Source: an uncultured Candidatus Poseidoniales archaeon (GTDB taxonomy: Archaea; Thermoplasmatota; Poseidoniia; Poseidoniales; Poseidoniaceae). Taken from it: a DNA stretch of 64,000 bases. Positions 12,158 to 61,469 of the stretch are shown in pieces. A model generated the notes under the pieces. The model was given only the letters and a program-made list of their open reading frames with translations, had not been told where the DNA came from and made no database searches. Location of the stretch: the NCBI GenBank assembly GCA_964526385.1, contig CAZGJD010000002.1:40799-104798 (forward strand), read 5' to 3'. Within the stretch, counting starts at the first letter, position 1; every line of letters starts with the position of its first letter. The position numbers and the translations under genes are program-made.

Positions 12158-12223
12158 TACCTGCTCGAAGTCAATTCACTCCTTCAACCCAACGGCAAAG
12201 TACTTCCTACTATACCGATATCT

Positions 12224-22493: not shown

Positions 22494-22512
22494 GTTAGCA
22501 CTGCATAAAACG

Positions 22513-32800: not shown

Positions 32801-34664
32801 CAGCGGTAGTCCAGTCCAATAGGACAACTTCTTCGAAATCTTCCAAGTACTGGACAATTCGGACATTTACATCATTCCAAGGGCCCGTGTTTTCTAATAG
32901 GTTTCCTTCGATTCTGAGTAGTTCATCGGTTACAAACCATGAACCGTTATCTGGAGAGGTTATTTCAACACCCGCTGAGGTATCATTGTCGGGCGGGAGA
33001 ATTACTCCCCCATCTCCGGTTAAGGGAGAACAATTTCTGTCTAGGACAGTATCTACTGCACACGATGCATCAACTAATCCAAATCCCCACTTATCATTCC
33101 AGCGATTGGATACATCCGGTTCGGTTGGGTTTCCCCTCTTCTCGCTTGAATTACGTAGAATGTCTTTGATTTCTTCAGGTGTCAGAGATGAGTCGGCTTG
33201 AAGCATTAAGGCTACAACTCCCGATACCAAAGGTGTAGCCATCGATGTTCCATCCTTTGATTCATAGCCGTCTTCAGCCATTGGTCTAGGAGTTCCAGGT
33301 AGCGAGCCACCAGTTGCCGCTGAGGCTGAAAACATACCGCTTCCGTATGAGGTTACGTCAGGCTTCAATTCATCCCAATCATCGTTATCACTGTCACTTT
33401 CCCTTGGCCCATAATTTGAGTAAGAGGCGACGAAATCATCTGTTCTGTTAATTGAATCAGCATCATCTATCGCACCAACAGTTATTGCGCCATCAGCACT
33501 ACCTGGTGAAGCAATTCGATTGCGTCCATCATTACCAGCAGCTACAACGCAGGTGATCCCGTTTTCTGTAGCGTTATTGACCAATCTTGCTTCAGCACCC
33601 GTTCCGTTGTCACCGCTGTCGTTAGGGTCGAATACGTTCCCAATAGAGCCAAATGACATTTGCCCTATTTGGATGCCTTTTGCTCCGTCACCCCAATTAG
33701 TGTCTCTGTTGTTAATCATCCACTGGATTCCATTTAGTGAGTTTTGAGAATTTGTTCCGCCACTATCTGTTAGGACTTTTACATCAACAAGGTAAGCTCC
33801 AGGAGCGCCTCCGATGTGAACTCTTGATGAATCCCCTGTCCCCAGAGCGATTCCCGCAACGTGGGTCCCGTGCCCCTGACCATCATCAGGGTCTTGTGAA
33901 CCATCCGGATTTGATGCTTGAGAGGTAGCATCGAAACCTGCAACCCATTTCTGATCGTCGTATGAATTTGGATCTAAATCTGGTGCATCGTCTTGGTCGT
34001 CAAAATCATTTAGCGACCTGTGCTCGTTGTCGACACCGCTATCCAATACTGCAATGACTATTCCTTCTCCAGTGTATCCTCTATCGTAAACGGTTCCAGA
34101 ATATACCTCAGATGGCTGGATTCTTGTTGCTGGATTTGCGTTTGCGAGGAAAGGAACCATGACATTCTGCATCTCAACTACAACGACAGATTCGATTGCG
34201 TGAATCTCCCAAAGAGCACTAACTGGGACGTGGTCAACCACTATTGAATCGATTGAATCCATAATTTGAAACCATGAACCTTCGGCTTCCCATCCGTGTT
34301 TCTTCAATACTGCAAGCAATTCCTCAACCTCAACTTCGGTTGGATGCCAAGCAAAGTCTACGACGATAGCAACCGTTTTTCGTCCATCTGAACCGATTAT
34401 TGAGGTGGTTGAAATTGATTCATGGGCCCCTGAAATTACTACTTCTAATCGGTCATCCATACCGTCAAAATTAACATCTGGGCCGTAACTAAACCACCAG
34501 CCATAATCCTCGGACGCAAATCTCCCATCCCTTGATGGAAGCCGGTCTTTGACATCCTCGATTAAGTCGTTTTCAATTTGGCTTGCGGTTGCAAGTGAAC
34601 TCATGGTTGAGAGCAGAAATATCGCAACCAATGCAATCGATTTCACACTCTTCACATAACTCAC
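29853..34664 (-). CDS. Very large membrane-anchored subtilisin-like serine protease (peptidase S8) with CARDB/Ig-like domains, an acidic cytoplasmic tail and a C-terminal zinc ribbon
   Basis: Signal peptide. Catalytic triad contexts VLDSGVD, HGTHVAG and GTSMATP. CARDB-like NTGDADA / NLGQNDA segments. TM helix LWILSGIGIFLFGLFLVVVVVL. Glu-rich tail. The terminal sequence is CGECGASVTIKDITIMTMNCPICSAQIKL. The start codon is GTG. Confidence 0.85.
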   Translation of the reverse strand: MSYVKSVKSIALVAIFLLSTMSSLATASQIENDLIEDVKDRLPSRDGRFASEDYGWWFSYGPDVNFDGMDDRLEVVISGAHESISTTSIIGSDGRKTVAIVVDFAWHPTEVEVEELLAVLKKHGWEAEGSWFQIMDSIDSIVVDHVPVSALWEIHAIESVVVVEMQNVMVPFLANANPATRIQPSEVYSGTVYDRGYTGEGIVIAVLDSGVDNEHRSLNDFDDQDDAPDLDPNSYDDQKWVAGFDATSQASNPDGSQDPDDGQGHGTHVAGIALGTGDSSRVHIGGAPGAYLVDVKVLTDSGGTNSQNSLNGIQWMINNRDTNWGDGAKGIQIGQMSFGSIGNVFDPNDSGDNGTGAEARLVNNATENGITCVVAAGNDGRNRIASPGSADGAITVGAIDDADSINRTDDFVASYSNYGPRESDSDNDDWDELKPDVTSYGSGMFSASAATGGSLPGTPRPMAEDGYESKDGTSMATPLVSGVVALMLQADSSLTPEEIKDILRNSSEKRGNPTEPDVSNRWNDKWGFGLVDASCAVDTVLDRNCSPLTGDGGVILPPDNDTSAGVEITSPDNGSWFVTDELLRIEGNLLENTGPWNDVNVRIVQYLEDFEEVVLLDWTTAGGEDDYWYLDVLIKDEWYDSEELNVVIEVKALGVDDLVSSDIRYGNIGKMVANFGSPSSGSIISGYTTFSGTAQGVNPDYLIYRVNSGEWLNAYSFDKEDFGPQDWSFTWDSTEVPDGSHKISIRLVNESGTESDITRRTFTVDNLPAAPELRFQGTVQVYDQDLPAQSAMAGTILEVHFGVVNTGDADASDLHLRLDAPGSTSNTYPSEGKLPQISEGETIQVKLWWWATEPGEHTVTLQIDPNGVTNDDQSDNEYTFTFMITERPIDPMLRFMTSAVTISPLIPTPNFGDSINSFTMNVRVDNLGQNDATNIRMSLYSWEDNWVPMESRTLMVVPGSSISSGYAKAQFSDSKDETGIYRYRAVLEGTGVEAQYSEYRFTVIVDDFSVSSKSTIQLSDGEVILGFVGIPVKDGDSSDGGGLLFTTINGELHARTLTQSGSTPSDTLVEENWAGEFAFTLRDDERVQMAWTKRFEDQLGYTMVDVGMASIGMLGEMGSVSSHLNPLKSSEGKYWGLDLHSKGDEIVLAGYHRDIKTGGSWNDLTNVFMMYKDDYSSSAAWITKMNVLIDIDIKPSEGNAIAVAIGSDDIHLLYQQIRDDGNGIERSGLFYAHGDISETPFGFQAPAGDYARNQDLEIVRHEGEDILVAGWIEGVGRSTSVMAAAQNTIWSNDNTVNISAPGATKIVLYKTSSKEIKFLYDEIGVSSTGAKPYTRYGSYNAGDSEIGLSNNIAEGYIVGAGSIGYDAFIIMVDPSGQVTSKKLLFAGQKEESDEKNGFLDYLLAPLPGEGVEKLWILSGIGIFLFGLFLVVVVVLKRQSDEEELEISAESGDLELLIETEEDFEEESDDLVVTIGEAVLEEEPEELTLSEELEAKVEAGTGSKRLERRMKRKEEREAKEIFENITKNLPVPGALLPIVEEEEIVISSPDLPMPAPPSPAEMPLPPLPIPERIGKCGECGASVTIKDITIMTMNCPICSAQIKL

Positions 34665-36852: not shown

Positions 36853-37581
36853 TTGAATAATGAAACCTTGTGTGGTCCAAACATGAGAAACTGGGGTCAA
36901 TCCCTTGCTATTATCGGTCTAACCGGTGCTGGATTGACATTATGGTTAGGATTTATGTGGGCTCCATCCGTTTCGATTGATGCTTTCAAAGCTCCTGAAG
37001 CACAGCGAATTTTCTATTGGCACGTGCCTAGTGCTTGGGCCGCAATGATTTCTTTTACTACGTTATTTATAGGCTCAGTTGTTTGGTTTTTCAAAAGGAG
37101 TGAATGGGCCTGGAGAATGCATGTTGCAAGCACAGAAGCAGGTTTGGCTACAGGTATGATGGCGGTTTGGTCTGGTTGTATATGGGGCGCTGCTGAATGG
37201 GGAGTTCCATGGGATTGGACTGATGTAAGATTGAACACTTTTGCTATACTAACTCTACTTTCCCTATACCTAGTGTTGGGCAGAAAGTCACAGCCAGACG
37301 GCATTGAAACAAGAGACACATTTTCTGCATTTGGAATGTACGGATTCATCCTTGTTCCGGTGACATATATCGCTACAAGACTTTGGCAAATTCGCCACCC
37401 TGGACCGGTTGTTGCTACTTCAGAAGGTTCCTTGAATTCTGACATGGGTATCGTTTTATTGGTTGGAGGAATTTCATTTTCAATATTGGTGATTGGGCAC
37501 ATAATTTCAGGGATGCGTTTAACAAAACTACAAATGCAATTTGAAGAGTTACAGGCTAAGTACGAGGGGGCAGTAAAGTGA
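36853..37581 (+). CDS. ccmC: Heme exporter protein C (System I cytochrome c maturation)
   Basis: RIFYWHVPSAW, the WWD-type tryptophan-rich motif WGAAEWGVPWDWTDVRLN, and the distal His RLWQIRHPG. Confidence 0.85.
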   Translation: MNNETLCGPNMRNWGQSLAIIGLTGAGLTLWLGFMWAPSVSIDAFKAPEAQRIFYWHVPSAWAAMISFTTLFIGSVVWFFKRSEWAWRMHVASTEAGLATGMMAVWSGCIWGAAEWGVPWDWTDVRLNTFAILTLLSLYLVLGRKSQPDGIETRDTFSAFGMYGFILVPVTYIATRLWQIRHPGPVVATSEGSLNSDMGIVLLVGGISFSILVIGHIISGMRLTKLQMQFEELQAKYEGAVK

Positions 37582-42581: not shown

Positions 42582-43292
42582 ATGCCAAGTATTCTCATAA
42601 CGTTACCGACGTTAGACGAGGAACTGGCTATTGAGGATGTTATCTCTCGAATACCTATGAGGAAAATAGAGGAGATTGGATTTGATACAAGCATACTTGT
42701 TATCGATGGCGGATCTACTGATAATACTATGAAAATAGCACGTGAATTAGGTGCCGAAGTTATTGAACAATGGGGTGATGGAAAAGGATTAGCAATTAGG
42801 CAAGCCTTCGAATTTTTCTTGGATTCTAGTCACGACTACATGATAATGTTAGACTCTGACGGCACCTACTGGCCAGAAGAGATACCGAATATTCTTTCAT
42901 CAATACCAAAAGGAGGAATTGCGATCGGTGACCGTCTAAGAGGAAATCTTGCAAAGGACGCGATGACGGCAACAAATTGGATTGGAAATCATCTTTTGAC
43001 TTGGCTAGCCGTTGCCTTACACGGCAGGCCAATCAATGATTTGTGTTCAGGATTTTGGGGTTTTTCTAGAAATGCTGTTCAGAGATTAGAACTCAATAGT
43101 CTACGATTTGAAATCGAAGCCGAAATGTACACATCTTGTGTAAATAGACGCATCCCGATTTCTCATGTCGCAATTAGTTATTCTAAAAGGAAAGGTGAGC
43201 CGAAACTTGGAAGCGTAAAAGATGGTGCTTCTATTGCTAGAAAACTCATCATCAGGAAAATCTTCCCAACACCGTATGAGGAGATTCGATGA
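42582..43292 (+). CDS. Glycosyltransferase family 2, dolichyl/polyprenyl-phosphate sugar synthase-like
   Basis: ITLPTLDEE...VIDGGSTDNT...DSDGTY (DxD). The ~235 aa size is typical of DPM1/GtrB-like enzymes. Confidence 0.7.
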   Translation: MPSILITLPTLDEELAIEDVISRIPMRKIEEIGFDTSILVIDGGSTDNTMKIARELGAEVIEQWGDGKGLAIRQAFEFFLDSSHDYMIMLDSDGTYWPEEIPNILSSIPKGGIAIGDRLRGNLAKDAMTATNWIGNHLLTWLAVALHGRPINDLCSGFWGFSRNAVQRLELNSLRFEIEAEMYTSCVNRRIPISHVAISYSKRKGEPKLGSVKDGASIARKLIIRKIFPTPYEEIR

Positions 43293-44251
43293 CGAAATAT
43301 TCTGTGGCCATACTTGGAGCAACCGGCTTGGTTGGCCAAAGGCTTCAGGAACTCCTGTGGAGACACCCCCTATTCGAAGTGGAAGCAATAGCAGGTTCAC
43401 CAAGTAATGTTGGGCTGATGTTTGAGGAACTGGAATGGAGGTTAGATTCCCCTAAACCCATCTATGACATACTCATCTGTTCAATGAGTGATATTCCCGA
43501 TGTTGATATAGCGTTCTCAGCTTTACCGAATAACGTAGCAGAAGTCGTTGAACCATCCTTGGTCGCCAGAGGAATTCACGTTTTTTCTAACGCTAGTTCA
43601 TTCCGTAGAGTTGCTGGAGTACCTCTTGTTATTCCAGAAATTAATCCAAAAGCAATGAAACAATATGACGGACATGCATGCGCCACAAACTGTACAGTAG
43701 TGCCTGTGGCTACATCCTTAGCAGGATTGAGAACCCTAGGAATCAAATCAATTACTATTTTCACGAGGCAGGCATTATCAGGCGCTGGCTGGAAACTTTT
43801 GTTTGATGAAAAGGCACTTTCGGGAGACGTAAATCCTCTGATTCCGGGCGAAGAGGACAAATTGGTTGCTGAGTTGAAACATTTACTCGAAATTGATGTG
43901 CCAATACTCGCCACCTGTAACAGAGTCGCAGAAAAAGATGGTCATATGGTCACCTGTGGTGTAGAATTAGAAAATGATACGACAATTGAAGAAGTAATAT
44001 CGCTTATGAAAATACCATCTTTGCACCTCCCTTCATCCCCAAGAAACGTAAATGAAATTATTCGTGAGTCTCCATCGCGAGATAAACACCTCTGGGCTGG
44101 CAATGGCATGTCAACAACTATTGGAAATATACGAGTGGAAAATAACGTAGTAAGGTTCGACGCACTTTCACACAATACTGTCAGGGGAGCTGCTGGAGGA
44201 GTTATTCTACTAGCTGAATTTGCCATCCAAGAAGCATACATCACCAAATAG
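43289..44251 (+). CDS. asd: Aspartate-semialdehyde dehydrogenase
   Basis: Rossmann motif VAILGATGLVGQR, PEINP, the active-site Cys region ATNCTVVP, and the C-terminal SHNTVRGAAGG. Confidence 0.7.
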   Translation: MTKYSVAILGATGLVGQRLQELLWRHPLFEVEAIAGSPSNVGLMFEELEWRLDSPKPIYDILICSMSDIPDVDIAFSALPNNVAEVVEPSLVARGIHVFSNASSFRRVAGVPLVIPEINPKAMKQYDGHACATNCTVVPVATSLAGLRTLGIKSITIFTRQALSGAGWKLLFDEKALSGDVNPLIPGEEDKLVAELKHLLEIDVPILATCNRVAEKDGHMVTCGVELENDTTIEEVISLMKIPSLHLPSSPRNVNEIIRESPSRDKHLWAGNGMSTTIGNIRVENNVVRFDALSHNTVRGAAGGVILLAEFAIQEAYITK

Positions 44252-44281
44252 GTAACCTCTCTTGGCCTACATGGTGGTTGC

Positions 44282-45295
44282 ATGGGCGTCACGGCAATGA
44301 TTCCAAATATGACATTCCAACAACTCAAGGATGAAGCTACTGCTAAGTGGGGAGAAATATGGGACCCAACAGCAGATAGACTAGAAATTCTCCTTCTGTG
44401 TCCTAGAAAAGAAAGGAAGTTATTGGAACTCCACGGCGACATGATCGACCATGGCCAACCAGTCATGGGCATTTTTCACAGACCTCGGGGAGCAGAAGAG
44501 CTTCTGGCTGAACAAGGATTTGACCATAGAGATGCTTCTTTCCAATTTATCAACATTGCAAATTCCGACATGGGAATTTGGATGCAGCAACTCGTTACTC
44601 AGGAAGGATGGCTGAGAAGTACAGTCGAAATCCATCCAACTCCATTTGCAGTTGGAATTCCAAACCAGCGTGCATTTGAGAAACACAGTATCCTATGTTT
44701 TAGACATCCAAGCCTGCCTAATTTGGACAGATATTTCCTTCCGTACCCCGTTTTCGCACTGGTTGGAAAGGCGTTTGTTTCTCTCCCAAGAAGGCAGGCT
44801 GCAGAACTTGCAAGACAGCAAGCGGAAATTCTTGGAGTTGGATTAGCAAAGCCTGAGCCAGAAATTGTGGAAGTCCGTGTCGTTGAACCTAAACCTGTAG
44901 TTGAGGAGAGTAACGTTGTTGATGAGATGGAAAAGGCGTTTATTGAAGAGATGAAACCCGAACCAGAAAGCGTACCTTTGCCTGCGGAAACGCCCACCGA
45001 AGAGTCCGCAAATGACTCGATCGTGGAAGAAGTTACCGTTTCAGAAGATGCAAAGCCTGTTCTTGAGGAGGATGGGGTTTCCAATGAAGAACCTATTCCG
45101 CTCCCTGAATCACAACCAGAAGAAAGCGATATGCCTGAAATTGAAAAGGAATTCAGGGATTTAGTTAGCGAGTTATTGGCACAAGGGGTAGACCCGTCAG
45201 AAATGATGACAGATGAACGCATGGAAGATATAAATGAACGTGCTTTAGCACAGAATTTTGAAACTTGGCCAGTGTTTATGCAAATGGTAAGTTAA
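44282..45295 (+). CDS. Hypothetical protein with a Glu/Pro-rich acidic C-terminal half
   Basis: Long ORF whose codon usage looks like that of its neighbours. No family motif recognised. Confidence 0.4.
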   Translation: MGVTAMIPNMTFQQLKDEATAKWGEIWDPTADRLEILLLCPRKERKLLELHGDMIDHGQPVMGIFHRPRGAEELLAEQGFDHRDASFQFINIANSDMGIWMQQLVTQEGWLRSTVEIHPTPFAVGIPNQRAFEKHSILCFRHPSLPNLDRYFLPYPVFALVGKAFVSLPRRQAAELARQQAEILGVGLAKPEPEIVEVRVVEPKPVVEESNVVDEMEKAFIEEMKPEPESVPLPAETPTEESANDSIVEEVTVSEDAKPVLEEDGVSNEEPIPLPESQPEESDMPEIEKEFRDLVSELLAQGVDPSEMMTDERMEDINERALAQNFETWPVFMQMVS

Positions 45296-45332
45296 TGCGA
45301 GGGTTCAAAGACGAGTTAGTGTTGGGATTATC

Positions 45333-45548
45333 ATGGCATTCTGTACAACATGTGGACAAATGCAAGCAGACGGGACAAGATTCTGCCGTTTCTGTGGTGG
45401 TCAGCAACCGAATGACCAATTGATTGCAGCTTTGAGAAGAGAAGCAGAAGCAATTCGATTCCAAATACAACAAATTCAAGCCCAACAAATGCAGGCTCAA
45501 CAGATGAGACAGATGGGTTATGGAAATCAACAACAAAGACAATGGTGA
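45333..45548 (+). CDS. Small zinc-ribbon protein with a Gln-rich coiled-coil tail
   Basis: CTTCG-x9-CRFCGG ribbon followed by QIQQIQAQQMQAQQMRQ. The stop overlaps the start of the next gene. Confidence 0.5.
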   Translation: MAFCTTCGQMQADGTRFCRFCGGQQPNDQLIAALRREAEAIRFQIQQIQAQQMQAQQMRQMGYGNQQQRQW

Positions 45549-46102
45549 TTGGAATGAAACTTCGCCAACTGGCGATTCAATTATCTAAATTGCCACCGCA
45601 TCCTTGCAACGTTATTAATTTAGAACAATATCAAACTGAGGGAGAACTCGCAGCGTTATGGTTAGCTCAAATCGATGGCTATGATGGCCTTGAAGGAAAG
45701 AAAGTCATTGACTTAGGTGCTGGAAACGGCATTTTAGGGTATGGCGCACAATTGCTAGGTGCTGATGTGACGTTCGTGGAGTGCGATGTGGATGCCGCTG
45801 AATTGTGTAAAAAATTAGGCGATACGATCGTCGGAAGAGTCGGTGAAGTTGAAATTGGTGAGGCTGATATCGTGATAATGAACCCACCTTGGGGTGTACA
45901 AAAAAAGGGTGCTGACCGCATATTTATCGCAACTGCAATGGAAATTGCGCCCGTAGTTCATATTTTGCATAGCGCAAATGCGACACACTTACCAGAAGGA
46001 GAGGTAATTCTAGAAGGCGAGTTCAGAATGCCTGCTACATATAGCCATCACACATCAAGAATGGGTGCTACCAAGATTAAGTGTTGGAGAATAACTCGAT
46101 GA
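45542..46102 (+). CDS. SAM-dependent methyltransferase of the METTL5 / COG2263 predicted RNA N6-adenine methylase type
   Basis: SAM motif I VIDLGAGNGILG and the catalytic NPPWG tetrad (VIMNPPWGVQ). Confidence 0.65.
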   Translation: MVIGMKLRQLAIQLSKLPPHPCNVINLEQYQTEGELAALWLAQIDGYDGLEGKKVIDLGAGNGILGYGAQLLGADVTFVECDVDAAELCKKLGDTIVGRVGEVEIGEADIVIMNPPWGVQKKGADRIFIATAMEIAPVVHILHSANATHLPEGEVILEGEFRMPATYSHHTSRMGATKIKCWRITR

Positions 46103-46189
46103 GAGGGGTTCAAGAACAAGGACCAACCGCATCATACTATCCAATTCCATTCACCAGTAGGTGAACCCCAAAAAAGCGAGAGTGAGAAT

Positions 46190-47542
46190 ATGGCGAGCAT
46201 CGTCACCCCAGGAACAGTAATCGGAAATGCAGATGAGTTTTCATCTGGAGAAGGAACAGAAGAAAGAAACGGTGAACTAATCGCCTTATTGACAGGATTG
46301 GTTGTTGAAGTTGATGGTGTTCTGACAATCCAATCACACAACGAACTCCTAAGACTAGAAGTCGGAGATTACGTCATTGGACAGGTTTCAAGACTCCACG
46401 AAAAATCCGGAGAAATACGAGTCATGAGCGTTGATGGTAAGCCAAATCGCTCGATTATGGAAGACCAAATGTATGCTCAAATTCACGTAACCGGTATTTG
46501 TGACAGATTCCTTCACAATACTGCGGATGCCATGCGTGTGCGAGACATCGTGCGTGCTAAGGTTACTGAAACAGGAAACGTGGTCAGAGTCGACATGCGA
46601 AGCGAAGACAACTGTGGAGTTCTTTGGGCGATTTGCCCTCCGTGTGGTTCTGAATTCAAAGCAGAGCAAAACGGAGATTGGAATGTTGCTTGCCCAACAT
46701 GTGATAATCGAGCCTTCAGGGCAATGGCAGATGACTTCGGGGGTTCAACCGGAATGGCCGCACTCAATGGTGGAAACAAAAGATGGAGTGGAGATGCTGA
46801 AGCACTATTCGCAAAGGGGAGTGCGGGCAGGGCCACATACATAGCTGAGGATGTGAGAGAAGATGGCACACCTCGTCAGTACTTCAGATTCGAAGATTCA
46901 GGAGGAAGAGGAGGAGGAAAGCAAAGAGCACCACCCGGTTGTAAATTATTCGTTGGAGGGTTACCAAACGATGTTACCGATGATGAAATTAAATCACTAT
47001 TCGAGCCTCATGGCGACATTACAGATTTTGCTATCATGAAGGACGACGAAGGAAATAACCGAGGATTCGGATTCATCACATATGCGACCAAGGATATGGC
47101 TACTACAGCATCAAAAGCTTTGGATGGACACAGGATCAAGGGCAGGAGAATTGGAGTAAGAGACGCTGACGCTCCACGTGATAAAAAGCCAAAAAGAGAG
47201 AGACCTAAGGGTTGCAGATTGTATGTAGGAAACCTTCCATTTGATGCAAGTGATGACGACTTGGCAAAATTATTCAATGACCATTGCGATTCAGTTCACG
47301 TTCAGTGGGCTACAGACAGAGGTGGAAAAAGGAAGGCATTCGCATTCGTAACAATCCAACCAGAGAGTGCTGGTGAAGAGGTTGTTTCCAAGCTTAATGG
47401 AACTGACTTCATGTCAAGAAACATCAAGGTCGACATCGCCAAACCAAGTGAAAAGAAGGGTGGCAAATCCGCAAGAGAACTTAGAGCAATAGCTGAGGAA
47501 GAAGCATCGGGAAAGAAAAAAGGCCGCAGACCAAGAAATTGA
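46190..47542 (+). CDS. csl4: Exosome complex RNA-binding protein Csl4 fused to two RRM domains
   Basis: aa 1-185 carry the Csl4 N-terminal domain, an S1 barrel and a zinc ribbon (CPPCGSEF...CPTCDN). aa 251-325 and 342-418 are RRMs, with RNP2/RNP1 pairs KLFVGGL/RGFGFITY and RLYVGNL/KAFAFVTI. A Gly/Arg linker and a Lys/Arg tail are also present. Confidence 0.8.
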   Translation: MASIVTPGTVIGNADEFSSGEGTEERNGELIALLTGLVVEVDGVLTIQSHNELLRLEVGDYVIGQVSRLHEKSGEIRVMSVDGKPNRSIMEDQMYAQIHVTGICDRFLHNTADAMRVRDIVRAKVTETGNVVRVDMRSEDNCGVLWAICPPCGSEFKAEQNGDWNVACPTCDNRAFRAMADDFGGSTGMAALNGGNKRWSGDAEALFAKGSAGRATYIAEDVREDGTPRQYFRFEDSGGRGGGKQRAPPGCKLFVGGLPNDVTDDEIKSLFEPHGDITDFAIMKDDEGNNRGFGFITYATKDMATTASKALDGHRIKGRRIGVRDADAPRDKKPKRERPKGCRLYVGNLPFDASDDDLAKLFNDHCDSVHVQWATDRGGKRKAFAFVTIQPESAGEEVVSKLNGTDFMSRNIKVDIAKPSEKKGGKSARELRAIAEEEASGKKKGRRPRN

Positions 47543-47547
47543 GGTGA
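47541..47547 (+). promoter_or_regulatory. Shine-Dalgarno-like GAGGTGA upstream of the TTG start of the radical SAM gene
   Basis: GAGGTGA lies 4 nt before the TTG at 47552 and overlaps the csl4 stop codon. Confidence 0.45.
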
Positions 47548-47551
47548 TTGA

Positions 47552-49279
47552 TTGGTAGAGCCAACTCCAAAATGGCTCATTATCGATGGGTATGAAGATG
47601 AACCGGCGGCATTTGGTGTACCGCCTTACATTGGATTTCACATTCGATACATTTGTGGAGTTTTGGAACAGAAAAATATCGATTACGATTATTGTACAAT
47701 AGATTCGTTTCGAATAAATCCTCAGAGCCTAGAAAACAGACTAGGAGTAGTCATCCTTGCTGGTGCAATAGTGCCAGGTAAATACCTTAGAGGCACCCCC
47801 ATATCTCTGAAGGAAACTCGAGATATCATTTCAAAAACTCCAAGAAACATTCCATTACTTTGTGGAGGCTGGGCGATTAGAGGATGGAGGCAACAAGGAT
47901 GGAATCCACTTCAGACAAATCTATTTCTAGCCTTGCAAGACACAGATGCTACACTAAACTACTACCTTGAAAATAATTCATGGAAGCACCAAAGACGAAG
48001 TCCCGAACAGTGGACTATCTGGGCCCGTCACGGGGCTAAATCAAAATCGGTAACACAAAACCCTGACCTAAACGGCCCGCTGACCTATGAAGTTGAGGTA
48101 TACCAGGGATGTGTAAGATACAAGCGAGGTTGTAAGTTCTGTATCGAGCCCAAAAAAGGGGTTCCGATTTGGAGAACCCCTGAAGACATAATTGAGGAGG
48201 TGAAAATCGCTCATGAAATGGGTGTTGAGCACGTCAGGTTGGGAGGTATGACTGACACATATACCTACATGGCAGAAGGTGTTGTGGAGTTAGAATACCC
48301 AGTTCCTAATCCCGAACCAATAGCGAAGTTACTACACGGATTAAGAGAAGATGAGAGATTGAAAATCCTTCATACCGATAACGGCAATCCGTCTATAATA
48401 GCAGAAAACTTGGAGCCCTCTGAAGAGATTACAAAGACGCTGACAGAGACGCTTTCAGACGGTGCTGTCTTATCGTTTGGCTTAGAGTCTGCTGATCCTT
48501 CAGTACATCAGGCCAACTGGTTAAATTGTGACTCGAATCAACTCAAAACGGCTATCTCTCTAATCAATAAATACGGTAAGGAAAAAGGTGAAAGAGGATT
48601 ACCAAAGTTACTCCCAGGGTTGAACTTTATTGCAGGGCTAAATGGGGAGACTGACCAAACGTATGATATCAATTTGCAACTCTTGAGAGAATTGAAACGT
48701 GAAGGACATATGATTCGCAGGGTAAATATTCGTCAGGTAGAGGGAGAAGGTTTCCAAGAAATAAATAACGAAAGATTCCAACAATTCAAAACAACCGTTC
48801 GAGACGAATTTGATGGCCCGTTGTTGGCAGATATGCTCCCGACTGGAACTATCTTGAAAGATGTGTATTGGGAATCTCACGAGGGAAGGACCCGGCTACC
48901 TCGTCACCTTTTACCCGAAGCCAGAAATGAAGAAATTAGAGGCAAACCAGGTATTACATTTGGCAGACAAATAGGAGCGTATCCAATTTTAGTAGGTATG
49001 AATTACCTCGCTCCTTTGGAATCATTTTCTGAAATTATGGTGACTGGTCACGGCGCCCGTTCCATAACTGGAATTGAGACTGGCATCAAATGGAATACAG
49101 CTACAGAAAAGCAATTGTCTGCAATCCCTGGCATTTCCGCTAAAGGTGCTTGGAATTTAATCGGAGCAAGGGCAAAAGCTCAATCAAAGGGCAGAAGCTT
49201 TGACACAATAGAAGATTGGTTCAAAGCCACAAACCTTCAGTTGCCAACTAAAGTTGATATAGAGAAAATCTTAGTTTGA
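47552..49279 (+). CDS. Radical SAM domain protein with a C-terminal helix-hairpin-helix
   Basis: Cys cluster CVRYKRGCKFC. TIM-barrel-like downstream motifs (GGMTD, GLESAD, NFIAGLNGET). C-terminal LSAIPGISAKGAWNLIG HhH. Confidence 0.6.
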   Translation: MVEPTPKWLIIDGYEDEPAAFGVPPYIGFHIRYICGVLEQKNIDYDYCTIDSFRINPQSLENRLGVVILAGAIVPGKYLRGTPISLKETRDIISKTPRNIPLLCGGWAIRGWRQQGWNPLQTNLFLALQDTDATLNYYLENNSWKHQRRSPEQWTIWARHGAKSKSVTQNPDLNGPLTYEVEVYQGCVRYKRGCKFCIEPKKGVPIWRTPEDIIEEVKIAHEMGVEHVRLGGMTDTYTYMAEGVVELEYPVPNPEPIAKLLHGLREDERLKILHTDNGNPSIIAENLEPSEEITKTLTETLSDGAVLSFGLESADPSVHQANWLNCDSNQLKTAISLINKYGKEKGERGLPKLLPGLNFIAGLNGETDQTYDINLQLLRELKREGHMIRRVNIRQVEGEGFQEINNERFQQFKTTVRDEFDGPLLADMLPTGTILKDVYWESHEGRTRLPRHLLPEARNEEIRGKPGITFGRQIGAYPILVGMNYLAPLESFSEIMVTGHGARSITGIETGIKWNTATEKQLSAIPGISAKGAWNLIGARAKAQSKGRSFDTIEDWFKATNLQLPTKVDIEKILV

Positions 49280-50824
49280 TTAATTTTCTATCCAAGCATA
49301 GGTTCGAAGGCCTTCTTCAACGCCCTCTTCTCCGACGTCTACCAGGGCAAATTCACCCTTTGGCGTAACAACGGATTCTGTAGCAAGCCCCTTGTGGAGT
49401 GCTTCATAGGTTAGTTTGTCGATAGCAATTCTACCCTCCAGCCTTTCGAACAAGTTCCAACGGCTGGCTATTTGTCGCCATGTCGGTTGTACCTCTGCTT
49501 CGAATACCTTTGCTTTCGCTCCAGACCCGTATCCACACAGACCAAAAACAACATCCTCGATTCTCGCATTCTCTTCATAATCTGCCTCAAAAGTGGACAT
49601 TAATGCTAAGAAAATAGAACCTGTGTATTGATTACCGATTAGTGAACTTGCTCTCTGGCCTTTTTCGATTCTATCCTCGACGAATTGCTTGAAAGATTCT
49701 GTTTTAGAAATCGCTCTCCTGTATGAATCCATTGCTCTTTCCCATTCATCTTCATTTTCATAATCAGATTCTTCGGGAGCAGGTCCAATCTCATCCTCAA
49801 TGATTTTCCACTCCTCTAGGTCTTGCCTATCGTGCCTGAACACATCGGGGAACATTCTTTTTGCTTGGAAAGCATAAGGTAGATGCATGATAATTCGTGC
49901 CCATTGTTCGGTCAGATTTTCATCCATTTCAGGGTCAAACCTTCCTTGGTCTATCGCTTTTTTACTGAAATGAGTAAACGCTTGCTTGACGGCCTCCCTG
50001 TAACATCTATTCGAAAATTGGCCATCGAAAACTGGTTCATCTCTGTGAACCTTGACGTTTTCTTCCCCGTGCGCAAAAATACCGAGTCTTCTAACCGTTG
50101 ACTCAGGAAGATGTTTAATCATGGCTTCCGCCATTCCATCTCTAATAGTCGCTCCAGCTTCAGCAGCCAATTGCAAAACGTTCTCAATTACGCTCTGAAT
50201 TGAAACCATTCTTCTTGGTTTGAAAAAATCGTGGACAGGAGTTGTTGAAACTCCCCATCTATCAGGAATTGCTACCAATCTTGGGTTATGACGGATTAAG
50301 AGAGCACCTCCACCGGCTCCTTGAGTGTATTCGCCAGATGATTCTAAGTCGTATTTTGCGTTATCAGAGAATACAACAATCCCCATTCTGTTTTCATCTT
50401 CTCCCCCTCTTGCAACCCAGTCTAGAGTATTGTGCAATGCGTCAACTGCACCAATACAAGCGAAAGTCATGTCCACTACGTCGCATCCTCTAAAGCAGTC
50501 TTCTCCATAGATGTCACCATATCTGTGAGTTAGCATATCAACGATGTATGTTGCAGTTGGTTTAGCGCCGTCCAAGGCAGATTCGGTCCCCAGGTATATT
50601 CTACCAATGTCTCTAGGATCTAATCCATTTCTATCAATCAGCCTGCAAACTGCATTAGCTCCCATTGTAGCTGTGTCCTCGTGTACGTCAGGAATAGACA
50701 TTGCTGCGAGTCCAAGGCCTTTATTCAGCTTTGAATAATCCGCACCTCGCATTGCTGCGAAATCCTCCATATCCATGTACAATCGAGGAAAATGAATCGC
50801 CATATCGTCGATTCCTACCTTCAT
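49280..50824 (-). CDS. Hydroxymethylglutaryl-CoA synthase (long form)
   Basis: GTESALDGAKP, the catalytic Cys context DMTFACIGAVDAL, and the thiolase-fold C-terminal GYGSGAKA. The ATG at 50824 (MKVGIDD) is preferred over the longest ORF start at 50863. Confidence 0.8.
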   Translation of the reverse strand: MKVGIDDMAIHFPRLYMDMEDFAAMRGADYSKLNKGLGLAAMSIPDVHEDTATMGANAVCRLIDRNGLDPRDIGRIYLGTESALDGAKPTATYIVDMLTHRYGDIYGEDCFRGCDVVDMTFACIGAVDALHNTLDWVARGGEDENRMGIVVFSDNAKYDLESSGEYTQGAGGGALLIRHNPRLVAIPDRWGVSTTPVHDFFKPRRMVSIQSVIENVLQLAAEAGATIRDGMAEAMIKHLPESTVRRLGIFAHGEENVKVHRDEPVFDGQFSNRCYREAVKQAFTHFSKKAIDQGRFDPEMDENLTEQWARIIMHLPYAFQAKRMFPDVFRHDRQDLEEWKIIEDEIGPAPEESDYENEDEWERAMDSYRRAISKTESFKQFVEDRIEKGQRASSLIGNQYTGSIFLALMSTFEADYEENARIEDVVFGLCGYGSGAKAKVFEAEVQPTWRQIASRWNLFERLEGRIAIDKLTYEALHKGLATESVVTPKGEFALVDVGEEGVEEGLRTYAWIEN

Positions 50825-50991
50825 TCCCATCCTTCTCCGGCTAAATCGAGACATATATGACAAGTTCCCCTATTTTTAATATAAAAACCAGTGTTGCCGG
50901 CTACACCTTCTATACCCACTGAATTTTACAATTTCCACGAACAATTGAGACAAATTTTCTCAATCAAGATAATCAATATCCAACTATTGCA

Positions 50992-59867: not shown

Positions 59868-59892
59868 GCGAACATGTTCGCACGAACATGTT
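59868..59892 (-). promoter_or_regulatory. Perfect 14-bp palindrome GCGAACATGTTCGC plus an adjacent CGAACATGTT repeat; candidate operator abutting a TATA-like box
   Basis: The palindrome spans 59868-59881, and CGAACATGTT repeats at 59883-59892. In gene orientation it sits at about -49 to -36 from the oxygenase ATG, directly upstream of AAATTTTA. Confidence 0.5.
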
Positions 59893-60511
59893 AGGAGTTC
59901 TTCCTCACATCATCCGAAAATGTGTTGATTATAGTGCCCTCTATTTTGTGAAGATGTACGGATAGTGTTGATTTACTTATATCGAGTAATTCGGCCAACG
60001 CACTAAGTGTTATCCTTCGTGGAGTATCCCAATATCCTTCATTTATCGCAGTGTCAAAAATAATCCTCTGTCTTGAGGTAAGCATTCGAGAACCACTTGA
60101 TCTTGTTGAAACAACTCTGTAAGGGACGTCGCCTTCGCGAAGTAGATTTATCAATTCTCTACTCTTTTCAGCGGAACACTCGATAGTCCAGTCGACCCAA
60201 CCATCCCTTACTTCGAAAGGAGACTGAGGAATAACTCCAACTTCACGAATCGGTTTGATATAACCTCCCCCACCAGGAGCAATGTCTACTTCGAAGCGGT
60301 TGCCACCTAATTCTCTGACCTCATCTACGCCTGAATGTGCTTCCAATTCGTCCGCTAAATTTGAGGTTGTGGAAAACCTAGCGGTACCTCTCCCTCTACC
60401 CAGTGGCATAGTTTCTTCGATTCGCAATACTGCTTCAGGCCTAGATCTTGAAACATCTCCAGACCAGTGTCCTTCTGGAAGTCGAACCTCGATCCTTATT
60501 TGGTTTACCAT
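59891..60511 (-). CDS. HTH_10 (bacterio-opsin activator-type) transcriptional regulator
   Basis: C-terminal LTSRQRIIFDTAINEGYWDTPRRITLSALAELLDISKSTLSVHLHKIE. The ATG at 60511 avoids overlap with glpX; the longest ORF starts at 60565. Confidence 0.7.
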   Translation of the reverse strand: MVNQIRIEVRLPEGHWSGDVSRSRPEAVLRIEETMPLGRGRGTARFSTTSNLADELEAHSGVDEVRELGGNRFEVDIAPGGGGYIKPIREVGVIPQSPFEVRDGWVDWTIECSAEKSRELINLLREGDVPYRVVSTRSSGSRMLTSRQRIIFDTAINEGYWDTPRRITLSALAELLDISKSTLSVHLHKIEGTIINTFSDDVRKNS

Positions 60512-60515
60512 AGTA

Positions 60516-61469
60516 TCACAATGGGTGTATCTTGTCGTGTCTTGAAACTGTGCCTGCTTGGACATCGATTAATTCGGCGAAGGTCTTGATAGAATCCTCT
60601 CCGATTACAACTCCCGGCAAATAGCCATCACAAACACCCGACGCTGCAAAAATTGCATCGTCGCTTCTGCACAAATCCTTTGCATCCCAAAGTCTTGTTA
60701 AATCATCGTTTACCATCTTCGCGGCTCTCTTTTCCTCTTCATCGGACCTGAAGACTAGACGGCCTTCGAATACTCCTCCGATGCCACGTATTGCCGCTGC
60801 CGTAATTACGCCTTCAGGAGCAGCGCCAATTCCTAACAACATATCGTACGGACCTTCTGGCCTGGCAGCCCATAATGCTGCGGAAACGTCTCCATCACCC
60901 ATTAGGTGAAGTTGAGCGCCTGCCTCCCTTACCTCTTTGAAAAGCTGGGCGTGCCTCTCTCTATCGAGTGCTACAACTCTGACTTCTGAAATCGGCTTGT
61001 CCAAGACCTCGGACGCTTGTTCAAGGTTGTATGCGACTCCACCGTCTAGACTAACATGGCCTGCTAATTCTGGGCCTGTAGCGATTTTATCCATGTAACA
61101 ATCAGGAGCATGAAGGAGAGTCCCCCTTGGAGCAGCAGCTAATACTGCAATTGAATTTGGTGAATTACTTGCACAATTATTTGTGCATTCTAGTGGATCT
61201 ACTGCTATATCTATCTGTAATGCTGATTCGACCCCGACTTGGTTTCCAAGTTCTTCGCCAATAAACAGCATAGGAGCCTCGTCACGCTCGCCCTCGCCAA
61301 TAGCAACCCGTCCATCAAATGGAACTTTATCGAATGTTTTTCGCATAGCTTCTACAGCTGCAGCATCAGCGGCATTTTTGTCGCCTTTACCACGCCAGTA
61401 TGCGCTTGCTATGGCCGCTTGGTCTACCGCTTCTAAGAAGTGATGTGCTAACTCTGCAGTTCTCGCCAT
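60516..61469 (-). CDS. glpX: Class II fructose-1,6-bisphosphatase (GlpX type)
   Basis: N-terminal MARTAELAHHFLEAVDQAAIASAYWRGKGDKNAADAAAVEAMR and GEGERDEAPMLFIGE parallel E. coli GlpX. The ATG at 61469 is preferred over the GTG at 61511. Confidence 0.85.
   Translation of the reverse strand: MARTAELAHHFLEAVDQAAIASAYWRGKGDKNAADAAAVEAMRKTFDKVPFDGRVAIGEGERDEAPMLFIGEELGNQVGVESALQIDIAVDPLECTNNCASNSPNSIAVLAAAPRGTLLHAPDCYMDKIATGPELAGHVSLDGGVAYNLEQASEVLDKPISEVRVVALDRERHAQLFKEVREAGAQLHLMGDGDVSAALWAARPEGPYDMLLGIGAAPEGVITAAAIRGIGGVFEGRLVFRSDEEEKRAAKMVNDDLTRLWDAKDLCRSDDAIFAASGVCDGYLPGVVIGEDSIKTFAELIDVQAGTVSRHDKIHPL

What the first reader, a model, noticed from the sequence alone, without database searches (positions are those of the whole stretch)
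46190..47542. Exosome cap protein Csl4 fused to two canonical RRM domains
The first ~185 aa show complete Csl4 architecture: an N-terminal domain, an S1 barrel and a CxxC...CxxC zinc ribbon (CPPCGSEF...CPTCDN). A Gly/Arg linker (GGRGGGKQR) follows. Next come two textbook RRMs (nt 46940-47443) with RNP2/RNP1 pairs KLFVGGL/RGFGFITY and RLYVGNL/KAFAFVTI, and then a Lys/Arg-rich tail. RRMs are abundant in eukaryotes and occur in bacteria. To my knowledge they are rare in archaea, and I know of no described Csl4-RRM fusion. Such a fusion would give the archaeal exosome cap a eukaryote-like substrate-recruitment module.
Basis: partly seen in the sequence, partly recalled or inferred. Interest (0 to 1): 0.8.

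Follow-up and report, generated by a model that had tools for sequence, protein, structure and literature searches.

The report
Archaeal exosome cap protein carrying RRMs
The gene is real: it is the Csl4 RNA-exosome cap subunit of Marine Group II ocean archaea, permanently extended by a conserved segment of unknown function, two canonical RNA-recognition motifs and a conserved tail, an architecture common in public genomes that I could not find described in any paper.

Summary
ORF 46190-47542 (+) is one intact 450-aa protein. Residues 4-184 are a full-length Csl4, scoring 110.8 bits against a curated cut-off of 90 and matching the A. fulgidus Csl4 structure. Residues 250-328 and 342-418 are two canonical RRMs (Pfam RRM_1, E 4e-35) whose RNP1/RNP2 aromatic residues are invariant across the family.

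It is not an assembly artefact. The same single-ORF architecture occurs in all 80 retrieved species genomes of Poseidoniales, out of 182 matched. It always sits in the same gene neighbourhood: small methyltransferase, then Csl4-RRM, then radical-SAM enzyme. It is under strong purifying selection (dN/dS 0.04). The methyltransferase-Csl4 pair is also found in other archaea, so this gene is the positional Csl4 ortholog.

The supposed linker contains the most conserved part of the protein (aa 185-236, no known family, predicted disordered). The tail carries a conserved KSxRELRAxxEE helix.

Sister lineages carry other RNA-binding modules at the same position: a zinc finger plus one RRM, or two zinc fingers plus RGG repeats.

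The most likely function is in-cis recruitment of single-stranded RNA to the exosome cap. This is inferred, not shown. The architecture is auto-annotated in databases, but I found no paper describing it.

The parts
46190..47542 (+). Whole Csl4-RRM gene (450 aa plus stop)
   Evidence: Intact ORF. More than 428 homologous 90%-identity clusters share the same Pfam content. 80/80 related loci have the same architecture.
46190..46345 (+). Csl4 N-terminal domain (aa 1-52), the ring-contacting domain in solved exosomes
   Evidence: Pfam ECR1_N covers aa 4-39 at 37.7 bits against a cut-off of 27. It aligns to 2ba1_A. The AF2 model is beta-rich with pLDDT 74-87.
46346..46609 (+). S1/OB barrel of Csl4 (aa 53-140)
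   Evidence: NF034126 covers aa 4-183. Foldseek matches 2ba1_A (E 7.6e-17, TM 0.65) and human EXOSC1 2nn6_I (TM 0.70).
46610..46741 (+). Zinc ribbon (aa 141-184) with C149, C152, C168 and C171. Canonical Csl4 ends here.
   Evidence: C149, C152 and C168 are invariant and C171 is >=90% conserved in 73 sequences. A. fulgidus Csl4 ends at the position aligned with aa 184.
46742..46897 (+). Lineage-specific conserved segment (aa 185-236): ...LNG.GKRW..AEALFAKGSAGRATFIAEDVREDGRER.YFRFEG
   Evidence: This is the most conserved part of the protein. Mean pairwise identity is 72% for aa 177-210 and 84.5% for aa 211-236. Many columns are invariant. It has no Pfam or PDB match. AF2 predicts two short helices, then pLDDT <50 for aa 211-246.
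46898..46936 (+). Gly/Arg-rich flexible linker (aa 237-249)
   Evidence: Length and sequence vary in the alignment. pLDDT is <50.
46937..47173 (+). RRM1 (aa 250-328). RNP2 is KLFVGGL and RNP1 is RGFGFITY.
   Evidence: Pfam RRM_1 covers aa 253-321. AF2 gives the beta-alpha-beta-beta-alpha-beta order with pLDDT ~77-85. L253, F254, G256, G257, G292, F293, F295 and T297 are invariant.
47174..47212 (+). Basic inter-RRM linker (aa 329-341)
   Evidence: Conservation is low, 44%. pLDDT dips at aa 332-335.
47213..47443 (+). RRM2 (aa 342-418). RNP2 is RLYVGNL and RNP1 is KAFAFVTI.
   Evidence: It is the second RRM_1 domain. The NCBIfam Rbp_regulator domain covers aa 344-419. Y345, G347, N348, P350, F351, K382, F384 and F386 are invariant. 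AF2 gives the RRM fold.
47444..47539 (+). C-terminal tail (aa 419-450). It holds the conserved motif K-S-x-R-E-L-R-A-x-x-E-E (aa 425-438, nt 47462-47503), followed by a K/R-rich end.
   Evidence: K426, R429, E430, A433, E436 and E437 are invariant, and the motif shows 79% mean identity. AF2 predicts a helix at aa 428-438 with low confidence. A related RE..A..EEG ending occurs in the distant variants P0123-P0125, P0135, P0152 and P0162.
45542..46102 (+). Upstream small SAM-dependent methyltransferase (MTS family). It is the conserved partner gene of Csl4.
   Evidence: Pfam MTS. It lies immediately upstream in 80/80 loci. The same holds in the MGIIb variant, the P0162 lineage, an RGG-tailed Csl4 and cultured Methanolapillus.
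47552..49279 (+). Downstream radical-SAM protein (575 aa), 9 bp after the Csl4-RRM stop codon and probably co-transcribed
   Evidence: Pfam Radical_SAM. It lies downstream in 77/80 loci. Orthologs carry a weak HHH_3 hit.

Best explanation
This is the orthologous Csl4 subunit of the RNA-exosome cap in a Poseidoniaceae (Marine Group II, Thermoplasmatota) archaeon. A canonical Csl4 occupies aa 1-184: an N-terminal ring-binding domain, an S1 barrel that lines the RNA entry pore, and a peripheral zinc ribbon. A 266-residue extension has been added permanently to its C-terminus. The extension has four parts: a lineage-specific conserved segment that probably folds only on a partner, a flexible G/R linker, two canonical RRMs, and a conserved acidic helix with a basic end. 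The proposed mechanism is inferred. Csl4 sits on the Rrp41/Rrp42 ring as usual. The tethered tandem RRMs bind roughly 6-10 nt of single-stranded RNA through their RNP1/RNP2 aromatic platforms and hold substrates next to the S1 pore. This would raise affinity and possibly give sequence preference for 3'-5' phosphorolysis or for the reverse tailing reaction. In Sulfolobus that role is supplied in trans by DnaG, which docks on Csl4. What is shown: domain identity, orthology by position, conservation and selection. What is inferred: ring association, RNA binding by the RRMs, and the recruitment role.
For: Csl4 identity rests on NF034126 at 110.8 bits against a cut-off of 90, the 2ba1_A sequence match, and Foldseek hits to archaeal, human and yeast Csl4.

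RRM identity rests on RRM_1 at E 4e-35 with two domains, the AF2 RRM folds, Foldseek hits to Sxl, HuD, HuR and hnRNP A1 tandem RRMs, and invariant RNP aromatic residues in 73 sequences.

The gene is real and conserved. There are 428 clusters. The scan matched 182 GTDB species genomes, and 80/80 retrieved loci have the full architecture once contig ends and one frameshift are allowed for. dN/dS is 0.039, and below 0.07 in every segment.

Orthology is supported by the methyltransferase-Csl4 adjacency in this window, in all 80 loci, in variant lineages and in Methanolapillus, where the order is MTase-Csl4-RpoL.

Sister lineages carry other RNA-binding modules at the same position: zf_Tbcl_2 plus one RRM, or 2x zf_Tbcl_2 plus RGG. 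Other archaeal Csl4 proteins carry RGG tails. This points to recurrent selection for extra RNA binding on Csl4.

In the literature, S. solfataricus Csl4 itself shows no poly(A) preference, and DnaG binds the exosome through Csl4 to recruit A-rich RNA (PMC3672285, PMC4227792).
Against: No rrp41, rrp42, rrp4 or dnaG gene lies in the 64-kb window, and I could not inspect a whole Poseidoniales genome, so presence of the ring is assumed. The N-terminal (ring-contacting) domain is the least conserved folded part, at 48% mean identity. RNA binding and specificity of the RRMs are untested. The most conserved segments (aa 211-236 and aa 425-438) have no assigned role in this model. AF2 gives no confident placement of the RRMs relative to the Csl4 body (pTM 0.41).
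Confidence: 0.65

Rival explanations
1. The extension is mainly a protein-docking or regulatory module rather than a substrate recruiter. The conserved disordered segment (aa 185-236) and the C-terminal helix would bind a partner such as the ring, DnaG, the ribosome or another RNase. Alternatively they would fold back on the RRMs or the pore to gate access, with the RRMs acting as protein-interaction domains.
For: The most conserved parts are not the RRMs. They are aa 211-236 (84.5%) and aa 425-438 (79%). Both are predicted disordered or of low confidence in the monomer, which is typical of segments that fold on a partner. Csl4 is a known docking hub for DnaG (PMC3672285) and for aRNase J through its C-terminal domain (PMC7144898). 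The RE..A..EEG ending persists in variants that lack RRMs (P0162).
Against: The RNP1/RNP2 aromatic residues that contact RNA are invariant in both RRMs, which is not expected for purely protein-binding RRMs. The modules swapped in by sister lineages (zinc finger, RGG) are also nucleic-acid binders. Docking and recruitment are not mutually exclusive.
Confidence: 0.17
2. The protein works independently of an exosome ring. It would be a free S1 plus RRM RNA chaperone or RNA-binding protein, comparable to bacterial cold-shock-type RRM proteins, with the Csl4 part reused as a generic RNA-binding module.
For: Exosome core genes were not found in the window, and their presence in the genome was not checked. 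Exosome composition does vary among archaea: some DPANN lineages lack Csl4 (PMC7414124), and Halobacteria lack the exosome altogether (PMC7144898). The N-terminal domain is the least conserved part.
Against: The protein matches the full-length Csl4 equivalog model above its curated cut-off, including the N-terminal domain. It occupies the ancestral methyltransferase-Csl4 position. All Csl4 domains are under strong purifying selection, with omega 0.067. No second, plain Csl4 appeared among the homologs from this lineage.
Confidence: 0.12
3. The fusion is an artefact: a chimeric assembly join, or two adjacent genes merged by a sequencing error.
For: None was found. The suspicion rested only on the unusual domain combination.
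Against: One uninterrupted ORF carries the architecture in 76/80 independent species-level genomes. The other four are explained by contig ends or a frameshift in one polished long-read contig. Hundreds of clusters come from independent projects. Composition is uniform across the junction. The junction segment is itself the most conserved part.
Confidence: 0.01

Closest known systems
Archaeal Csl4 (A. fulgidus AF0206, PDB 2ba1/3m7n; S. solfataricus and P. abyssi Csl4)
   Same: It has the same three domains in the same order (N-terminal, S1, four-Cys zinc ribbon). It aligns end to end with AF0206 (aa 4-184 to 3-175 of 179). It passes the NCBIfam equivalog cut-off and has the same upstream methyltransferase neighbour as other archaeal csl4 genes.
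   Different: It carries 266 extra C-terminal residues that no characterised Csl4 has: a conserved novel segment, two RRMs and a conserved tail.
Archaeal DnaG as a Csl4-bound RNA-binding accessory of the exosome cap (PMC3672285, PMC4227792)
   Same: The proposed role is the same: an additional RNA-binding surface attached through Csl4 that recruits single-stranded, A-rich RNA and supports tailing.
   Different: DnaG is a separate protein with a Toprim/primase fold that binds non-covalently. Here the extra module is covalently fused and consists of RRMs. There is no homology, and the analogy is by function only.
Eukaryotic tandem-RRM proteins (chloroplast RNPs cp28/29/31/CP31B, ELAV/HuR, Sxl, hnRNP A1, PABP RRM1-2)
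   Same: The cassette has two canonical RRMs joined by a short basic linker. The window's RRM pair aligns collinearly to a conifer (Picea) tandem-RRM protein from the group of hits that includes chloroplast RNPs, at 38% identity over 176 aa. A distant fusion member reaches 38-44% over 98% of its RRM pair against plant proteins that include named chloroplast RNPs. Foldseek matches Sxl, HuD, HuR and UP1.
   Different: Those proteins are free RNA-binding proteins and are not part of a nuclease subunit. The RNA specificity here is unknown, and common descent by gene transfer is not demonstrated.
Bacterial PNPase (RNase PH-like ring with KH and S1 domains fused in cis); stated from general knowledge
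   Same: A phosphorolytic ring nuclease whose RNA-capturing domains are covalently attached above the pore.
   Different: In PNPase the RNA-binding domains are fused to the catalytic ring polypeptide. Here RRMs are added to a separate cap subunit that already carries an S1 domain.
Sister variants in class Poseidoniia, and RGG-tailed Csl4 of other archaea
   Same: They share the Csl4 core, the methyltransferase neighbour, and the first part of the extension (LN..GKRW..AE).
   Different: The MGIIb/Thalassarchaeaceae form has one zf_Tbcl_2 zinc finger plus one RRM (P0138, P0338). A rare lineage has two zinc fingers plus RGG repeats (P0162, P0335). Other archaea have only RGG/RG tails (P0344, P0346, P0347, P0349). 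Methanolapillus has an N-terminal RG-rich extension (P0345).

Membership tests
Csl4 (archaeal exosome cap subunit; NCBIfam NF034126 / PRK09521) | Whole-protein HMM score above the curated equivalog cut-off | tested here: met
   110.8 bits against a cut-off of 90, covering aa 4-183 and model positions 2-178 of 180.
Csl4 (archaeal exosome cap subunit; NCBIfam NF034126 / PRK09521) | N-terminal domain shared with Rrp4 (ECR1_N) | tested here: met
   PF14382 scores 37.7 bits against a cut-off of 27, at aa 4-39.
Csl4 (archaeal exosome cap subunit; NCBIfam NF034126 / PRK09521) | Central S1/OB barrel | tested here: met
   The AF2 model has beta strands at aa 61-135. Foldseek matches 2ba1_A (E 7.6e-17) and 2nn6_I (TM 0.70). 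The Pfam S1 and EXOSC1 models themselves gave no significant hit for this protein.
Csl4 (archaeal exosome cap subunit; NCBIfam NF034126 / PRK09521) | C-terminal zinc ribbon with four Cys ligands | tested here: met
   C149-x2-C152 and C168-x2-C171 are present. They are invariant or nearly invariant in 73 homologs and align with the Cys pairs of AF0206.
Csl4 (archaeal exosome cap subunit; NCBIfam NF034126 / PRK09521) | Conserved genomic position of archaeal csl4, directly downstream of a small MTS-family methyltransferase | tested here: met
   Seen in the window, in 80/80 loci, in variant lineages and in Methanolapillus CP131060.1.
Csl4 (archaeal exosome cap subunit; NCBIfam NF034126 / PRK09521) | Rrp41/Rrp42 ring genes present in the same genome | not tested
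   No RNase PH-like gene was found among the ORFs of the window that I scanned; four ORFs of 606-1,603 aa and the 242-aa ORF at 36853-37581 were not scanned or gave no hit.
Csl4 (archaeal exosome cap subunit; NCBIfam NF034126 / PRK09521) | Physical assembly on the Rrp41/Rrp42 hexamer | not testable with these tools
   This needs reconstitution or a multimer structure prediction.
RRM (Pfam PF00076 RRM_1) | HMM score above the gathering threshold, for each of two domains | tested here: met
   119.9 bits against a threshold of 20.7, with two stretches, E 4.1e-35.
RRM (Pfam PF00076 RRM_1) | Beta1-alpha1-beta2-beta3-alpha2-beta4 fold | tested here: met
   In the AF2 model, RRM1 has E252-256, H264-274, E277-284, E290-298, H301-311 and E322-325. 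RRM2 has E342-347, H355-363, E368-375, E381-390, H392-402 and E413-416. Foldseek matches tandem RRM structures.
RRM (Pfam PF00076 RRM_1) | RNP2 and RNP1 motifs with RNA-stacking aromatic residues | tested here: met
   The motifs are KLFVGGL / RGFGFITY and RLYVGNL / KAFAFVTI. F254, F293, F295, Y345, F384 and F386 are invariant in 73 sequences.
RRM (Pfam PF00076 RRM_1) | Binding of single-stranded RNA | not testable with these tools
   This needs EMSA, RNA Bind-n-Seq or similar assays.
Chloroplast-RNP-like or ELAV-like tandem-RRM proteins (considered as the source of the cassette) | Collinear RRM1-linker-RRM2 similarity and phylogenetic nesting within the eukaryotic clade | tested here: inconclusive
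   Collinear alignments reach 38-45% identity, and the named nearest relatives are algae and plants. No bacterial RRMs were in the comparison set and no tree was built. The database is biased toward eukaryotes.

The most novel reading that the evidence does not exclude
The tandem-RRM cassette was captured as a unit from a photosynthetic eukaryote, as a chloroplast-RNP-like or algal tandem-RRM gene, by an ancestor of the phytoplankton-associated Marine Group II archaea. It was then welded onto the exosome cap. This would give these archaea a eukaryote-derived, sequence-selective RNA-decay or tailing adaptor. The conserved disordered segment (aa 185-236) and the C-terminal helix would be new docking elements for a partner that is still unknown.
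Probability: 0.2. Interest if true: 0.75.

Novelty: new variant of a known kind. Interest (0 to 1): 0.6.

Why it matters
The archaeal exosome is the model for how the eukaryotic exosome works. How its cap selects substrates is still unsettled: Rrp4 and DnaG prefer poly(A), while Csl4 alone does not.

Here the Csl4 of one of the most abundant archaeal groups in the surface ocean carries two RRMs, the hallmark RNA-binding domain of eukaryotes. Work on eukaryotic RRM origins names bacteria as the prokaryotic source (PMC9887622). Sister lineages have swapped in zinc fingers or RGG repeats at the same position.

Three consequences follow:
- It provides a natural series of cap variants for testing how appended RNA-binding modules set exosome specificity.
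- It is a clear case of RRMs integrated into core archaeal RNA metabolism.
- It raises a possible eukaryote-to-archaeon transfer.

It also flags two strongly conserved segments with no known function.

Tried and rejected
- **Assembly chimera or hidden frameshift:** rejected.
- **Stand-alone RRM gene in the lineage:** the 115-aa 'RNA-binding protein' P0303 looked like one. It is the tail of a full fusion cut by a contig start.
- **Natural Csl4-plus-segment-only forms:** P0132 and P0334 (277-281 aa) looked like these. Their C-termini are out-of-frame readings of the RRM region.
- **Recent internal duplication of the RRM:** rejected. RRM1 and RRM2 are only 32% identical, and each is closer to foreign RRMs.
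- **Known domain in aa 172-250:** none was found in Pfam or by profile search against PDB; the best E-value was 0.28, which is chance level.
- **Exosome core genes in the window:** none among the ORFs scanned.
- **First genome scan:** a 13-sequence alignment that included the most distant variants failed because no stretch was conserved enough. The successful scan used a motif from aa 217-226, so it does not sample variants that lack that motif (MGIIb, P0135, P0162).
- **Search with the RRM pair of P0125:** the word prefilter was saturated by eukaryotic proteins, and the query's own family was not even listed. It shows similarity to plant chloroplast RNPs but is not a fair ranking.
- **Literature:** searches for a description of the fusion, or for exosome genes in MGII, found nothing.
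- **Checking rrp41 or dnaG in Poseidoniales genomes:** this was not possible with the remaining tool quotas.
Full report
**Observation.** The window holds one uninterrupted ORF at 46190-47542 on the + strand. It starts with ATG and encodes 450 aa. Pfam finds two RRM_1 domains (E 4.1e-35; best stretch aa 253-321) and the ECR1_N domain (aa 4-39, above its gathering score). The NCBIfam Csl4 equivalog model NF034126 scores 110.8 bits against a curated cut-off of 90 and covers aa 4-183. The sequence of the solved A. fulgidus Csl4 (2ba1_A, 179 aa) aligns to aa 4-184 and ends at '...DYG', opposite the window's 'DDFG'. Canonical Csl4 therefore ends at aa 184, and the remaining 266 residues are an extension. 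GC content is flat across the junction.

**Structure.** I built an AlphaFold2 model from a 73-sequence alignment (mean pLDDT 74, pTM 0.41).
- The Csl4 body is confident (pLDDT about 80-89).
- Both RRMs are confident and have the textbook beta-alpha-beta-beta-alpha-beta order.
- Two short helices lie at aa 190-208.
- Residues 211-246 have pLDDT below 50.
- A helix at aa 428-438 is predicted with low confidence.

Foldseek against the PDB returns archaeal Csl4 first (2ba1_A, E 7.6e-17). It then returns human, yeast and Chaetomium Csl4 inside exosome structures, and for the C-terminal half the tandem RRMs of Sxl, HuD, HuR and hnRNP A1.

**The fusion is real and conserved.**
- A search of 5.8 billion proteins gave 428 clusters at E<=1e-5. 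The best 120 are nearly all 440-520 aa (a few are shorter fragments) and carry the same Pfam domains. The named ones are from Candidatus Poseidoniaceae, Poseidonia or Poseidoniales.
- A scan of one genome per GTDB species found 182 genomes encoding a relative. The scan used a motif from the conserved middle segment.
- Of the best 80 loci, 76 show csl4, middle segment, RRM1, RRM2 and tail in a single ORF. Three are cut by contig ends. One (L062) has a frameshift in a polished long-read contig, with RRM2 and the tail intact in the next frame.
- Against the 93%-identical ortholog L001, dN/dS is 0.039 overall and below 0.07 in every segment.
- No other RRM is encoded in the window.

**It is the Csl4 ortholog by position.**
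- In the window the gene lies 87 bp downstream of a small MTS-family methyltransferase (45542-46102) and 9 bp upstream of a radical-SAM gene (47552-49279).
- The methyltransferase is upstream in 80/80 loci and the radical-SAM gene downstream in 77/80. The wider block asd, hypothetical gene, zinc-ribbon gene, methyltransferase, Csl4-RRM, radical SAM is shared.
- The same methyltransferase-Csl4 pair occurs in a divergent two-RRM lineage (P0124), the zinc-finger variants (P0338, P0162) and an RGG-tailed Csl4 (P0347). P0135 has an unannotated 225-aa gene in the methyltransferase position. In the cultured methanogen Methanolapillus millepedarum the order is methyltransferase, Csl4, RpoL.
- No plain second Csl4 from this lineage appeared in either large search.

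The stretch between the zinc ribbon and the GGRGGG linker is not a linker. Its consensus is LNG.GKRW..AEALFAKGSAGRATFIAEDVREDGRER.YFRFEG, and it is the most conserved part of the protein.

| Segment | Mean pairwise identity |
|---|---|
| aa 211-236 | 84.5% |
| C-terminal motif, aa 425-438 | 79% |
| aa 177-210 | 72% |
| RRM1 | 67.5% |
| S1 | 64% |
| RRM2 | 57% |
| N-terminal domain | 48% |

This segment has no Pfam family and no significant PDB match. Half of it is predicted disordered in the monomer. Taken together, this suggests a segment that folds on a partner. The tail is also more than Lys/Arg-rich. K426, R429, E430, A433, E436 and E437 are invariant, and a related RE..A..EEG ending is kept in distant variants, including one without RRMs.

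**Variants at the same position.** The exhaustive representative search and follow-ups showed that relatives carry different RNA-binding modules on the same Csl4 core and the same first part of the extension.
- One zf_Tbcl_2 (CxxC-x17-CxxC) zinc finger plus one RRM in Thalassarchaeaceae/MGIIb (P0138, P0338).
- Two zinc fingers plus long RGG repeats in a rare lineage on a 3.0-Mb contig (P0162, P0335).
- A shortened middle segment in P0135 and P0152.
- In unrelated archaea, Csl4 with plain RGG/RG tails (P0344, P0346, P0347, P0349), or an N-terminal RG-rich extension in Methanolapillus (P0345).

The C-terminus of Csl4 is thus a recurrent site for adding RNA-binding modules. The window shows the tandem-RRM solution, which is typical of Poseidoniaceae.

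**Origin of the RRMs.**
- RRM1 and RRM2 are only 32% identical to each other. Each is closer (39-48%) to RRMs of non-fusion proteins, so a recent internal duplication is unlikely.
- The nearest non-fusion tandem-RRM relatives that carry names are from stramenopile algae: Tribonema, Phaeothamnion and Striatella.
- With the RRM pair of the distant member P0125 as query, the best hits are plant proteins, many named chloroplast RNPs (cp28/29/31, CP31B), plus a green alga, at 38-44% identity over 98% of the query.
- The window's own RRM pair aligns collinearly at 38% identity over 176 aa to one of these plant proteins (Picea, P0359). That is about as close as it is to distant fusion members, at 40-43%.
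- This fits capture of a eukaryotic tandem cassette. It is not proof, for three reasons: eukaryotic sequences dominate the databases, the word prefilter was saturated, and no bacterial RRMs were in the comparison.

**Mechanism.** Established work shows that the archaeal cap is a trimer of Rrp4 and/or Csl4 whose S1 domains line the entry pore. S. solfataricus Csl4 lacks the poly(A) preference of Rrp4. DnaG docks on the exosome through Csl4 and supplies A-rich RNA binding and tailing support (PMC3672285, PMC4227792, PMC7144898).

The simplest reading is that Poseidoniales build an RNA-capturing module directly into Csl4. Two canonical RRMs hang on a flexible tether from the peripheral zinc ribbon, giving up to six RRMs per complex. 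They would hold single-stranded RNA next to the pore for phosphorolysis or tailing.

Domain identities, orthology and selection are shown. Ring association, RNA binding and the recruitment role are inferred. The two most conserved segments remain unexplained and may be docking elements, which is the main rival view. An exosome-independent role cannot be excluded until ring genes are confirmed in these genomes. They are not in this window, and whole genomes could not be searched here.

**Novelty.** Automated pipelines already label these proteins. NCBI uses 'exosome complex RNA-binding protein Csl4'. JGI uses 'RNA recognition motif-containing protein/exosome complex RNA-binding protein Csl4', and sometimes 'nucleolin'. 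The sequences and the architecture are therefore public.

Full-text searches of about 8.3 million papers and preprints found no description of a Csl4-RRM fusion, nor of the exosome in Marine Group II. A recent analysis of RRM origins names bacteria as the prokaryotic source (PMC9887622). I rate this as a new variant of a known kind, of moderate to high interest to RNA-decay and archaeal-evolution specialists.

Noticed in passing
window 43289-49279; loci L001-L080, L081, L087, L088: A conserved block surrounds csl4 across Poseidoniia. Its order is aspartate-semialdehyde-dehydrogenase-like gene, a 337-aa acidic hypothetical protein, a 71-aa zinc-ribbon/Gln-rich protein, the methyltransferase, Csl4-RRM, and a 575-aa radical-SAM protein whose orthologs show a weak HHH_3 hit. 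The radical-SAM gene starts 9 bp after csl4, and its function is unknown.
   Followed up: partly
L053 (NZEQ01000079.1): A contig carrying the archaeal asd, methyltransferase, Csl4-RRM, radical-SAM block is deposited under 'Verrucomicrobiales bacterium isolate ARS100'. It is probably a mis-binned contig.
   Followed up: no
L062 4001-5700; proteins P0132, P0334: Long-read or polished contigs carry frameshifts inside the Csl4-RRM gene, which produce apparent truncated or odd-tailed proteins. P0303, a 115-aa 'RNA-binding protein' with four NCBI accessions, is the C-terminal piece of a fusion cut by a contig start.
   Followed up: yes
proteins P0306, P0308, P0310, P0311, P0092: JGI annotates several of these archaeal Csl4-RRM proteins as 'nucleolin', which is a misleading automated name.
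   Followed up: no
L084 (Methanolapillus millepedarum CP131060.1), protein P0345: The Csl4 of a cultured methanogen has an N-terminal low-complexity RG-rich extension of about 170 aa. Several uncultured archaeal Csl4 proteins have C-terminal RGG tails of 80-130 aa. I have not seen these extensions discussed either.
   Followed up: partly
window 19107-26100 and 29853-34664: Three very large ORFs (1128, 1212 and 1603 aa) were not examined.
   Followed up: no
window 13360-14127, 12149-13321, 49280-50863, 59891-60565: Archaeal markers in the window fit a Thermoplasmatota/Poseidoniales origin: TBP, a GHMP-family kinase (candidate mevalonate kinase), HMG-CoA synthase and an HTH_10 regulator.
   Followed up: partly
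(search with the RRM pair of P0125): The word-indexed protein search did not return the query's own family, because the 8000-candidate prefilter was filled by eukaryotic RRM proteins. Rankings from that tool for abundant domains should be read with care.
   Followed up: no
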